A DNA stretch of 64,000 bases, from the NCBI GenBank assembly GCA_951406725.2, contig OX597818.1:73966001-74030000 (forward strand), read 5' to 3'. Position 1 is the first letter of the stretch. Each line of letters opens with the position of its first letter. This document shows, piece after piece, positions 12,200 to 51,995 of the stretch. The stretch is from Octopus vulgaris (taxonomy: Eukaryota). Both the position numbers and the translations under genes were made by a program. The notes beneath the pieces were generated by a model that saw only the letters and a list, made by a program, of their open reading frames with translations, was not told the DNA's origin and ran no database searches.

Positions 12200-12772
12200 T
12201 TCTTTTCTACTCTTGGCAAAAGGACGGAAATTTGCGGGACGGAGGCAATTGATTACGTCGACGCCAAAGATGCAACTTGTAATTAACTTATCGACTCCAA
12301 AAAAATGAATAGCAAAGTCGACCTCGTTGAAATTTGAACTCAGAGCATAAAGACAGACGAAATACCTATTTCTTTACTACCCACAAGGGGCTAAACACAG
12401 AGAGGACAAACAAGGACAGACAAACGGATTAAGTTGATTACACCGATCCCAGTGCGTAACTGGTACTTATTTAATCGACCCCGAAAGGATGAAAGGCAAA
12501 GTCGACCTCGGCGGAATTTGAACTCAGAACGTAACGGTAGACGAAATACCTATTTCTTTACTACCCACAAGGGGCTAAACACAGAAGGGATAAACAAGGA
12601 CAGATAAACGGAGTAAGTCGATTATATCGACCACAGTGCGTAACTGGTACTTCTTTAATCGATCCCAAAAGGATTAAAGGTAAAGTCGACCTCGGCGGAA
12701 TTTGAATTCAGAAGGTAGCGGCAGACGAATTACCGCCAAGCATTTCGCCCGGCGTGTTAATGTTTCTGCCTT
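12200..12772 (-). repeat. SINE-derived tandem array, 183-bp unit (two clean units plus one diverged)
   Basis: tatttctttactacccacaaggggctaaacacaga..gtcgacctcggcggaatttgaa..agacgaa(a/t)tacc at 12368-12550 and 12551-12733, with a diverged unit at 12200-12367 and the SINE 5' part at 12733-12772. Confidence 0.9.
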
Positions 12773-27064: not shown

Positions 27065-27079
27065 TATATCTATCTATAG

Positions 27080-27305
27080 TTGTGCGCGTCTTTGTGTCTG
27101 AGTTTGTCCACCCACCACATCGTTTCACAATCGATGCAAATGTGTCCACGTAATTTGCAGTTCGGCTTTGGGGACGATAGAATATGTACTAGTCTTACAA
27201 AGAATAAGTCCTGGAGTTGATTTCTTCGATAAAAAAAGCCGGTGCTTCAGCATGGCCGCAGTCAAATGACTGAAAGAAGTAAGAGACTGAAACTAATAAA
27301 GAATG
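27080..27305 (+). mobile_element. SINE 3' fragment
   Basis: gatagaata..agaataagtcctgg..cagcatggccgcagtcaaatgactgaa, the reverse complement of the 22945-23100 tail. Confidence 0.7.
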
Positions 27306-27318
27306 AGAAAATATATAT

Positions 27319-27353
<35 letters not shown>

Positions 27354-27447
27354 GAGAGAGACAGAAAGAGACAGACAAATAAATAGACAAACAAAAAGAC
27401 AGTCACCGGTTTATGGTGTTATCAGTTATCGTAAACCGGTGACTGCG

Positions 27448-27490
27448 GTACGCCGAAGACAGGCAAATACCTAGAAACTGCAGTCCGTGC
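27448..27490 (+). ncRNA. Minimal type I hammerhead ribozyme (core variant CCGAAGA)
   Basis: gtacg-CCGAAGA-cAGG-caaata-CCTa-GAAAC-TGCA-GTC-cgtgc. Stem I is gtacg/cgtgc and stem III is the palindrome ACTGCAGT. Confidence 0.7.
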
Positions 27491-27657
27491 GTGTCACTTA
27501 GGATTACGAGTGAGGGATGACCTCCCTTTGCAAATACCATAAGGGCACAGAAAGTGTGCCTAAAGCCAGCTGGAGACGATGATCTCCTGGGGTTAAAAGC
27601 TACAGTAACACCCACCCTTAGTGGTTAGCCATATTGAGATGGCTAGTATACTTTACG

Positions 27658-27690
<33 letters not shown>

Positions 27691-27759
27691 TGTATGTACG
27701 TATACACCTATTTGTTGTTTATACACCTATCTTCGTCATTTGTTTTTCTGTAAATTTCT

Positions 27760-27821
<62 letters not shown>

Positions 27822-51715: not shown

Positions 51716-51995
51716 AGTGATTTTAAATTCTCAAACGCAGGATAATGCTAATAATATAGCCTGCACAGGATAAGCTACCCCTATTTTGCAGACAAAAGTG
51801 TTGGCGGCCGGCTATGGGACATCGGTGTTGGCGGTTTAGCTTAATGGTTCAGAGCACCGCGATGCCTATTCATGGAGATGTGAGTTCGAGTCTCATAGCC
51901 AGCAGCCGAAACTTTTGTCTGCAAAATAGGGGTAGCTTATCCTGTTCAGGCTATATTATTATAATTATCCGGTGTTTGAGAATTTAAAATCATTT
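51716..51995. mobile_element. Fold-back element centred on a tRNA-like sequence
   Basis: Arms tgattttaaattctcaaac..caggataagctacccctattttgcagacaaaagt and acttttgtctgcaaaataggggtagcttatcctg..gtttgagaatttaaaatca. Confidence 0.88.
51827..51903 (+). pseudogene. tRNA-like sequence (pseudo-tRNA or SINE head)
   Basis: Acceptor gttggc/gccagc, D-arm tagcttaatggttcagagca, T-arm GTGAG-TTCGAGT-CTCAT. The anticodon arm is imperfect, so identity cannot be assigned. Confidence 0.7.

What the first reader, a model, noticed from the sequence alone, without database searches (positions are those of the whole stretch)
27400..27655. Compact, highly structured hammerhead-containing element with no ORF (retrozyme-like)
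Seen: a ~255-bp GC-richer island between (GA)n/(GACA)n and (TA)n tracts, made almost entirely of hairpins. It begins with cagtcaccggtttatggt/atcgtaaaccggtgactg (27400-27445), followed directly by a minimal hammerhead (27448-27490; stem I gtacg/cgtgc, palindromic stem III ACTGCAGT, core CCGAAGA). Further hairpins follow: ggcaca/tgtgcc, ggaga/tctcc inside ccag/ctgg, and tagccat/atggcta. Known: minimal type I hammerheads with palindromic stem III occur in PLE termini and in non-coding retrozymes, and they cleave as dimers. Inference: this is a short non-autonomous ribozyme-bearing retroelement, possibly forming circular RNA, that may be undescribed in this lineage.
Basis: partly seen in the sequence, partly recalled or inferred. 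Interest (0 to 1): 0.75.

Follow-up and report, generated by a model that had tools for sequence, protein, structure and literature searches.

The report
Hammerhead retrozyme copy with variant core
This is one cut-short copy of a 355-base, protein-free repeat found at hundreds of places in what is probably an octopus genome; it carries a predicted self-cutting RNA motif with two unusual changes and is likely pasted around by Penelope-type jumping-gene enzymes, a kind of element already known from other animals.

Summary
The hairpins and hammerhead are real, but the boundaries were wrong. Window 27428-27659 is a 5'-truncated 232-nt piece of a head-to-tail unit of 353-357 nt. The first hairpin (27400-27445) is a private fold-back of this copy. 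Six subfamilies give 638 exact ribozyme-motif places in the genome, plus a 10-unit array. Insertions look Penelope-made: two fixed 3' ends about 46 nt apart, scattered 5' ends, inverted arms, 9-16-nt target duplications, (TA)n targets. No copy examined continues into a reverse-transcriptase frame, so it is not a Penelope terminus. The ribozyme is an extended type I hammerhead, not a minimal one, and its helices and C3-G8/U3-A8 pair covary. CCGAAGA is not a private mutation: 91 exact copies carry this U4C core, and 367 carry a C10.1-A11.1 mismatch. This window copy is probably dead. One contig from a run guessed to be RNA starts at the predicted cut site. Cleavage and circles are untested. Verdict: new member of the animal non-LTR retrozymes. 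This scan noted octopus retrozymes with the same footprint before on other DNA (other unit sizes). The variant cores are the interesting part.

The parts
27428..27659 (+). 5'-truncated arm of the retrozyme-type repeat: positions 1-232 of the 353-nt reference unit (L026:1501-1853), ending at the short fixed 3' end
   Evidence: 95-97% identity over query 49-280 in the best-scoring genomic copies; mapping on the unit; 3' end class
27439..27497 (+). Extended type I hammerhead: outer helix 27439-27443/27493-27497, inner helix I 27447-27452/27486-27491 (first pair broken by a private C-to-G change at 27447), core, helix II, palindromic helix III
   Evidence: Covariation across subfamilies; own model R1 scores the window copy 113 bits (R1 was built from relatives, not from this copy); sister subfamilies match Rfam Hammerhead_HH9 below gathering score
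27453..27459 (+). Core strand CCGAAGA, a U4C variant (C at 27454) shared by the whole subfamily
   Evidence: 91 exact genomic copies with CCG against 38 with CTG; 26 CTG against 2 CCA among 100 listed rows argues against CpG decay as the main source of CTG
27460..27473 (+). Helix II with C10.1-A11.1 mismatch at its base, 3 pairs and a CAAAUA loop
   Evidence: C-A in CC, CT and OLD subfamilies (91+38+238 exact copies), G-C in TT, GGGA and CCGG subfamilies; inner pairs covary
27474..27485 (+). GAAA, palindromic helix III (ACTGCAGT) and GUC triplet; predicted cut between 27485 and 27486
   Evidence: Helix III stays self-complementary in all five variants tested; each pairs as a dimer and none folds alone
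27544..27645 (+). Three downstream hairpins (27544-27560, 27566-27590, 27626-27645)
   Evidence: 90-96% of cells paired in 46 copies, with double-sided changes in three of the four helices
27400..27417 (-). Private inverted duplication of the arm's first 18 nt; predicted to pair with and block the 5' strand of the outer ribozyme helix
   Evidence: Sequence; predicted pairing probability of the hammerhead helices falls to 0-0.01 with it, against 0.98 (outer) and about 0.35 (inner) without it
27659..27687 (.). (TA)n tract at the 3' junction, the preferred target
   Evidence: 33 of 115 fixed 3' ends run into (TA)3 or more and the 20-nt flanks average 84% A+T
27065..27375 (-). Unrelated SINE-like repeat with a (GA)n tract, upstream neighbour; not part of the element
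   Evidence: Matches other window repeats at 72-77%; the SINE label is recalled, not from a call

Best explanation
Window 27428-27659 is a 5'-truncated, probably inactive copy of a 353-357-nt non-coding head-to-tail repeat with a predicted extended type I hammerhead, likely an animal non-LTR retrozyme copied by the reverse transcriptase and endonuclease of a Penelope-like element. Shown: the unit, the tandem and inverted anatomy, the fixed 3' ends, target duplications, covarying ribozyme helices, six subfamilies, and an intact-looking Neptune/Nematis-type element with the same two-end, (TA)n footprint in the genome. Inferred: tandem copies are transcribed; two hammerheads pair through the palindromic helix III and cut after GUC; the monomer is ligated to a circle; the Penelope enzyme nicks AT-rich DNA and primes on the RNA at two fixed points about 46 nt apart, giving one arm or two opposed arms, and reads past one unit length. 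The window's subfamily (U4C, C10.1-A11.1) is predicted to cut poorly on its own yet spread from several source copies.
For: Unit and tandems; a 10.2-unit array with period 355 and 98% matches between units; 35 of 142 segments longer than one unit. Footprint: 115 of 142 segments from 95 pattern-anchored loci end at unit positions 226-234 or 270-284; 41 of 95 loci hold both orientations; of 41 abutting inverted pairs, 23 have one short and one long end and none has two alike; 24 of 95 loci have 9-16-nt direct repeats against a mean of 0.21 (max 2) in 200 shuffles. These match the tail, inverted-copy and (TA)n features described for Penelope-like elements (PMC8557442, passages). Ribozyme: 93% of cells paired, 13 of 39 pairs with double-sided change, against 29-45% paired for slid controls; C3-G8 29, U3-A8 17, unpaired 0 of 46; the outer-helix pair at 16/66 is C-G 19, U-A 56, other 3 of 78. 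One template: diagnostic sites differ at 25 of 376 between the two arms of an insertion and 17 of 177 between two passes of an arm, against 35% for random pairs. Candidate enzyme: a 781-codon open frame in 9 of 9 loci fetched, RT plus C-terminal GIY-YIG, with two 3' ends 38 nt apart followed by (TA)n. One contig of run X3 begins with an adapter-like end joined at the predicted cut.
Against: No cleavage or circle was measured. The window's core breaks two consensus rules, and Rfam misses both this copy and an OLD copy. The candidate Penelope element shares no alignable sequence with the unit and its ends are not found by model R1, so the partner is inferred from footprint only. Shared alleles between arms would also arise from a homogeneous linear multimer such as the 10-unit array. 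Some insertions mix variants (L022 10 of 14 sites, L026 4 of 16). U4C arms exceed one unit as often (15 of 43) as U3-A8 arms (9 of 24) and CUGA arms (7 of 27), so a consensus core is not visibly needed. The adapter-joined end is one contig in a run only guessed to be RNA; the same run has an adapter junction elsewhere, and other contigs cross the cut site uncut. In a vertebrate survey only 1 of 9 retrozyme dimers cleaved in vitro (bioRxiv 10.64898/2026.07.22.740005). Subfamily members are related, so covariation cells are not independent events: about six lineages carry the signal.
Confidence: 0.72

Rival explanations
1. Same element and same Penelope enzyme, but copies are made from linear multimeric transcripts of tandem loci. 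The ribozyme of the window's subfamily is dead baggage and no circle is involved.
For: U4C considerably lowers activity in vitro (PMC3088659, passage). U4C arms are as long as others. A homogeneous 10-unit array exists. L026's two units differ at 4 of 16 diagnostic sites. Monomer folding favours an off-pathway hairpin in CC copies: mean P(stem II) 0.16 against 0.79 in CT and 0.99 in TT.
Against: Helices kept covarying inside the young subfamilies (pair 16/66 in CC copies: C-G 11, U-A 23, other 1). Long arrays were rare among the loci seen (one of 10 units; the others under about 2.3 units). The OLD subfamily with a consensus CUGAUGA core also scores low in monomer folding (0.15, 3 copies), so that test is weak. 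A natural U4C variant still supported viroid infectivity.
Confidence: 0.2
2. The repeat is the terminal repeat (pLTR) of an autonomous Penelope-like element, seen mostly as truncated ends.
For: [quoted passage not shown] Vertebrate retrozymes are reported to derive from pLTRs. One OLD copy (L179) sits directly behind a Penelope 3' region.
Against: 5' extensions run on round the unit instead of into a shared body. Shared abutting flank: 1 pair among 55 flanks (64 nt, 78%), 0 among 23 OLD flanks, 1 pair among 18 GGGA flanks (one locus fetched twice), and 1 pair among 40 tail-anchored loci with up to 3 kb of flank, lying beyond a 3' end. The element behind L179 has its own different hammerhead, and 0 of 19 other copies are followed by the unit. 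Only the best 30 of 148 scored GIY-YIG matches plus 9 further loci were examined.
Confidence: 0.05
3. A satellite or DNA-level duplicated repeat spread by recombination, with a chance hammerhead-like motif.
For: A 10-unit tandem array exists.
Against: Dispersed over nearly all large contigs; fixed 3' ends, 5' truncation and target duplications indicate target-primed reverse transcription; core and stem covariation is not chance.
Confidence: 0.03

Closest known systems
Metazoan non-LTR retrozymes (coral, mussel, axolotl; Cervera and de la Pena 2020, PMC7229834: passages and Discussion read, supplement unreadable)
   Same: Non-coding monomer within the reported 150-450-bp range (mussel 350-390 bp), head-to-tail copies, type I hammerhead, target duplications longer than 4 bp, co-existence with Penelope-like elements
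   Different: Mostly dispersed truncated one- or two-armed insertions rather than arrays; variant cores (U4C, C10.1-A11.1, U3-A8); circles and cleavage not shown here; 'cephalopod' does not occur in that paper's main text
Vertebrate non-LTR retrozymes as non-autonomous Penelope derivatives (Li, Clavereau, Pollet, bioRxiv 10.64898/2026.07.22.740005: parts 1-3 of 5 read)
   Same: Monomers, dimers and multimers; proposed dependence on Neptune/Poseidon elements
   Different: Their link rests on pLTR similarity and co-occurrence and no mollusc was sampled; here no pLTR similarity was found and the link comes from insertion anatomy
Penelope-like element insertions (Craig et al. 2021, PMC8557442: passages read)
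   Same: Partial tandems, inverted 5'-truncated copy, tail at one end only, (TA)n bias
   Different: No ORF; tail about 46 nt rather than 30-40
[quoted passage not shown]
   Same: Type I, palindromic helix III, U3-A8 core covariant
   Different: This motif has the canonical 6-bp helix I and short helix II, not the long helix II and short helix I of min-HHRs; their highly conserved G10.1-C11.1 pair is C-A in three subfamilies here
Rfam Hammerhead_HH9 (RF02275, clan CL00010)
   Same: Full-length model match for two sister subfamilies (31.9 and 31.6 bits), with the same outer helix, internal loop and 6-nt loop II
   Different: Below the gathering score of 52; no match for the window copy or for an OLD copy

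Membership tests
Metazoan non-LTR retrozyme | Short non-coding monomer in head-to-tail copies | tested here: met
   353-357-nt period; 10.2-unit array; 35 of 142 segments over one unit; no ORF of 40 aa on the ribozyme strand of the window copy
Metazoan non-LTR retrozyme | Type I hammerhead in each unit | tested here: met
   10 of 10 ribozyme-bearing units of the array carry the motif; covariation; HH9 matches in sister subfamilies
Metazoan non-LTR retrozyme | Target-site duplications longer than 4 bp | tested here: met
   24 of 95 loci, 9-16 nt, control mean 0.21; none is visible at the window copy
Metazoan non-LTR retrozyme | No primer-binding site or polypurine tract; GC under 50% | not tested
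   Only the ribozyme part has a GC figure (0.48)
Metazoan non-LTR retrozyme | Self-cleavage of transcripts | tested here: inconclusive
   One adapter-joined contig end at the predicted site in a run guessed to be RNA; uncut contigs also present; no assay possible
Metazoan non-LTR retrozyme | Accumulation as circular RNA | not testable with these tools
   Only assembled contigs were served, and genomic tandems contain every junction a circle would have
Consensus hammerhead core (PMC3088659 criteria) | C3 U4 G5 A6 N7 G8 A9 and G12 A13 A14 A15 U16 H17 | tested here: not met
   Window copy and its subfamily have C4. Met by CT and OLD; TT, GGGA and CCGG carry the known U3-A8 covariant
Consensus hammerhead core (PMC3088659 criteria) | Paired N10.1-N11.1 | tested here: not met
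   C-A in the window copy and in the CC, CT and OLD subfamilies; G-C in the other three
Minimal hammerhead of Penelope pLTRs | Helix II of 7-8 bp, helix I of 4-5 bp with poorly defined loop 1 | tested here: not met
   Helix II 3-4 bp, helix I 6 bp plus a conserved outer helix
Autonomous Penelope-like element terminus | Continues 5' into an RT plus GIY-YIG frame | tested here: not met
Penelope-type insertion | Tail at one end, inverted truncated partner, microsatellite bias | tested here: met
   repeated on 39 scored of 40 tail-anchored loci: 20 with an inverted arm ending at the short end, 7 other inverted, 12 single
Neptune clade (candidate partner P0001) | RT, CX2-5CxxC linker, C-terminal GIY-YIG | tested here: inconclusive
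   Domains and a C-x4-C-x2-C linker are present (the RT score 28.9 is just under Pfam's cut-off 29.6); Nematis shares the linker and no tree was built

The most novel reading that the evidence does not exclude
The U4C subfamily is a ribozyme cheater. In the double-hammerhead dimer each core cuts the partner's strand. The CC, CT and TT subfamilies share an identical palindromic helix III and inner helix I, so a crippled CCGAAGA RNA could be cut, and then circularised, by an intact U3-A8 or CUGA partner, keeping only its substrate half under selection. Alongside it, C10.1-A11.1 would be a long-lived, functional natural exception to one of the most conserved hammerhead pairs.
Probability: 0.17. 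Interest if true: 0.72.

Novelty: new member of a known kind. Interest (0 to 1): 0.45.

Why it matters
The class is known, and the scan has already met it in this and other octopus-like genomes. Two things are useful. First, the insertion record ties a retrozyme to Penelope-type enzymes by anatomy and shows that both arms and repeated passes mostly come from one sequence variant; the published link rests on co-occurrence and terminal similarity. Second, the family is a natural allelic series of hammerhead cores (CUGAUGA, CUGAAGA, CCGAAGA with C-A closure; UUGACAA, UUGAUAA with G-C closure) on nearly the same 355-nt backbone: the CC and TT majorities differ at 7 of 219 positions, all inside the ribozyme. 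That makes an open question directly testable: whether hammerhead cleavage is needed for Penelope-driven mobilisation, and whether dimer partners can rescue a weak core.

Tried and rejected
Rfam on the whole window and on 27200-27800: no hammerhead, only AT-repeat microRNA noise. CpG decay as the source of CTG copies: rejected as the main cause (26 CTG against 2 CCA in 100 listed rows; CUGA also in the outgroup subfamily). 'U4C is the youngest subfamily': not supported; copies fetched without similarity selection diverge 3.5% (39 of 42 used), CT 4.1% (29 of 30, p 0.35), TT 2.4% (29 of 30, p 0.007). The tree did not resolve CC from CT. Sequence similarity to Penelope ends: none in 30 GIY-YIG loci and 9 full-length loci, except one nested OLD copy; model R1 found no strong match at their ends. 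L179 as a pLTR: rejected. Sequencing runs: no RNA holder listed on record; summed contig depth was not used as expression, and the deep stretch at unit positions about 160-230 overlaps the piece captured by another repeat. Assigning the adapter-joined contig to a subfamily failed: it has 6 differences to L026, and the subfamily majorities have 3 (CC), 4 (TT), 6 (CT) and 11 (CCGG). The second read-laying run (4 runs) listed no further adapter end among the loose ends shown; 32 were not shown. Monomer folding did not separate good from bad cores reliably. The homolog search with P0001 gave no informative host name. A look-up of earlier scan notes by sequence was blank. Lunse et al. 2017 on dimeric hammerhead variants was not held and the supplement of PMC7229834 was too large; either could list octopus motifs or the C-A and U4C variants.

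Full report
Observation. Rfam finds no hammerhead here. A search of the own genome (2.80 Gb, 227 contigs) returned 62 matches from the 40 scored of 2094 candidates; the best are 95-97% identical but only to window 27428-27659. So the opening hairpin is not family sequence: 27400-27417 is an inverted copy of the first 18 nt of this insertion.

The unit. Flanks of other copies continue into shared sequence on both sides and close into a head-to-tail unit of 353 nt (L026:1501-1853, used as the coordinate 'circle'). The window holds positions 1-232. One locus is a 10.2-unit array, period 355, 98% matches between units, also ending at position 232 before ATAT. Exact-motif counts, each with 0 for the reversed control, are: CCGAAGA core 91, CTGAAGA 38, TTGACAA with GAGG stem 105, TTGACAA with GGGA stem 48, a subfamily with CGGTGCGTA after the triplet 118 (18 of 25 distinct copies seen have TTGATAA) and an older CTGATGA subfamily 238, 638 places in all. 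A 21-nt motif across the short 3' end has 382. These are lower bounds; the true number is unknown.

Insertion anatomy. In 95 loci chosen by ribozyme motif, not by similarity to the window, 115 of 142 segments end at positions 226-234 (69) or 270-284 (46), while 5' ends fall in every 30-nt bin; 41 loci hold both orientations; among 41 abutting inverted pairs 23 have one short and one long outer end, none two short or two long, and 18 have at least one other end; 35 segments exceed one unit; 33 of 115 fixed ends run into (TA)3. Direct repeats of 9-16 nt flank 24 of 95 loci against a mean of 0.21 in shuffled pairs. Forty further loci picked by the tail motif repeat the pattern (39 scored). Craig et al. 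(PMC8557442, passages) describe this for Penelope-like elements: partial tandems, an inverted 5'-truncated copy, a 30-40-bp tail often at one end only, and (TA)n bias tied to a CX2-5CxxC linker.

Not a Penelope terminus. 5' flanks are unrelated between loci: 1 short pair among 55, 0 among 23 OLD and one twice-fetched locus among 18 GGGA, and 1 pair among 40 with up to 3 kb of flank after masking all subfamilies, lying beyond a 3' end. tblastn found Penelope protein remains in 5 of 220 element loci and in 1 of 39 long flanks, about 900 nt away. The most suggestive, L179, belongs to another old element with its own hammerhead, and 0 of 19 other copies of it are followed by the unit; the other hits were judged only by position.

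Candidate enzyme. A GIY-YIG search scored 148 matches from 6136 candidates, many in a 781-codon frame. Nine such loci all hold the frame; two are 99.8% identical over 5 kb; the unit is about 4.7 kb. The protein has RT, a C-x4-C-x2-C linker and C-terminal GIY-YIG, which fits Neptune or Nematis. It ends at either of two points 38 nt apart, followed by (TA)n, and carries its own U3-A8 hammerhead-like motif. It shares no alignable sequence with the retrozyme unit. The partnership is therefore an inference from footprint, and another family could be the real one.

The ribozyme. Alignments across five subfamilies show an extended type I hammerhead: outer 5-bp helix, internal loop, inner 6-bp helix I, core, helix II with a 6-nt loop, short helix III. 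On 46 copies 93% of cells pair, 13 of 39 pairs change on both sides, and slid controls give 29-45%. C3-G8 (29) and U3-A8 (17) alternate without exception, the covariant reported for natural hammerheads (PMC3088659, section 8 read; PMC4209133, parts 1-2 read). Helix II inner pairs switch A-U/G-C; pair 16/66 is C-G or U-A in 75 of 78 copies. A further 9-bp helix is weaker (73% paired; the OLD rows are out of register there). Helix III is self-complementary in all five variants tested and pairs only as a dimer, as expected for dimer-acting hammerheads (review PMC6765202, passages). Two sister subfamilies match Rfam HH9 over the full model below gathering score. Because copies descend from about six lineages, these counts are not independent events.

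The variant core. The window's subfamily departs twice from consensus. C10.1-A11.1 is old: it is shared with the CTGATGA subfamily, which differs at 54 of about 219 positions, while the adjacent pair covaries. U4C is derived and subfamily-wide: CpG decay cannot explain the pattern, and CC copies carry more than one downstream haplotype, so several U4C sources were copied or recombined. By summed contig depth C also predominates at this position in run X17, labelled as another organism (T in 869 of 4044; not a copy number). U4C lowers activity in vitro but was tolerated in a viroid (PMC3088659, passage). Against a simple story: CC is not the youngest group (3.5% median divergence against 4.1% CT and 2.4% TT), and its arms exceed one unit as often as others. 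The window copy itself has a private change that breaks the first inner pair, and its fold-back is predicted to block helix I, so it is probably dead.

Template. Prompted by an earlier scan note, I compared diagnostic sites. The two arms of 54 insertions differ at 25 of 376 sites, two passes of 43 arms at 17 of 177, random pairs at 35%. One sequence variant usually supplies the whole insertion, which fits a circle or a homogeneous multimer. A few insertions mix variants (L022, L026), which offers a route for swapping ribozyme halves: CC and TT majorities differ at 7 positions, all within the ribozyme.

RNA. Only contigs were served and RNA status is guessed. In run X3 one contig (depth 12.9) has a loose end that I recognise from memory as a template-switch adapter, joined to CGGTGCGTA and then family sequence. 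That string follows the GUC triplet in the 118-copy subfamily and did not occur among the 20 commonest post-triplet strings of the other loci, so the end lies exactly at, or within two bases of, the predicted cut. It is one contig; another adapter end lies elsewhere, uncut contigs exist, and the body could not be assigned to a subfamily. It is a hint only.

Known and new. The element fits metazoan non-LTR retrozymes (PMC7229834, passages and Discussion), which a 2026 preprint derives from Penelope elements in vertebrates (parts 1-3 of 5 read). Searches for retrozyme with octopus, hammerhead with Penelope and octopus, cephalopod with hammerhead ribozyme, and octopus with ribozyme, circular RNA and retrotransposon listed no description of it (listings only). 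A recent Octopus vulgaris repeat annotation has no 'ribozyme' or 'retrozyme' in its main text or its one readable supplement. Earlier notes of this scan report octopus retrozymes of 422-536 nt with the same footprint, so the kind is not new to the scan. A search for natural 10.1/11.1 variants listed five papers; the three I read in part report U-U or compensatory changes or a conserved G-C, not C-A. Lunse et al. 2017 and one supplement could not be read.

Verdict. A real feature with wrong boundaries; a new member of a known kind; interest 0.45, resting on the core-variant series and the tests it allows.

Noticed in passing
L090:2420-2835 and L306:2805-2868: Unit positions 168-229 are captured inside another repeat whose ends look Helitron-like (3' hairpin and CTAG; label recalled). 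It may account for the very deep contig coverage of that stretch.
   Followed up: partly
L156-L164 (for example L159:247-4960): Very young Penelope-like element, unit about 4.7 kb, intact 781-codon frame in many copies, two 3' ends 38 nt apart, (TA)n targets, U3-A8 hammerhead-like motif about 95 nt from the end. Its short and long ends carry TTTAC and TATTAT a few bases from the junction, as the retrozyme ends do; not tested for significance.
   Followed up: partly
L326-L344: An older Penelope-related family with a TTGAAAA-core hammerhead-like motif and palindromic helix III near its 3' end.
   Followed up: no
L144:3-99, L329:244-332 and L329:563-702: Weak matches to my ribozyme model (35.7, 24.5 and 22.1 bits) in unrelated sequence; possibly other hammerhead repeat families, the two in L329 roughly one unit apart.
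   Followed up: no
L091:6759 to L092:379: 10.2-unit array of the U3-A8 subfamily, 98% homogeneous, 9 of 10 units with a one-base longer loop II; a candidate source locus.
   Followed up: partly
window 51830-51904 (+): tRNA-like Rfam hit, 34.6 bits, with mismatched acceptor stem; probably a SINE head or pseudogene.
   Followed up: no
window 23709-24122/24796-25209 and 61687-62004/63675-63992: Two young inverted repeat pairs (414 nt at 97%, 318 nt at 99%); could be DNA-transposon ends or two-armed insertions.
   Followed up: no
window 12290-12734: 2.4 tandem copies of a 184-nt SINE-like piece.
   Followed up: no
L285 and L302: Two retrozyme insertions beside the same 500-nt, 95% identical simple-sequence-rich repeat ending in (TA)n.
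   Followed up: partly
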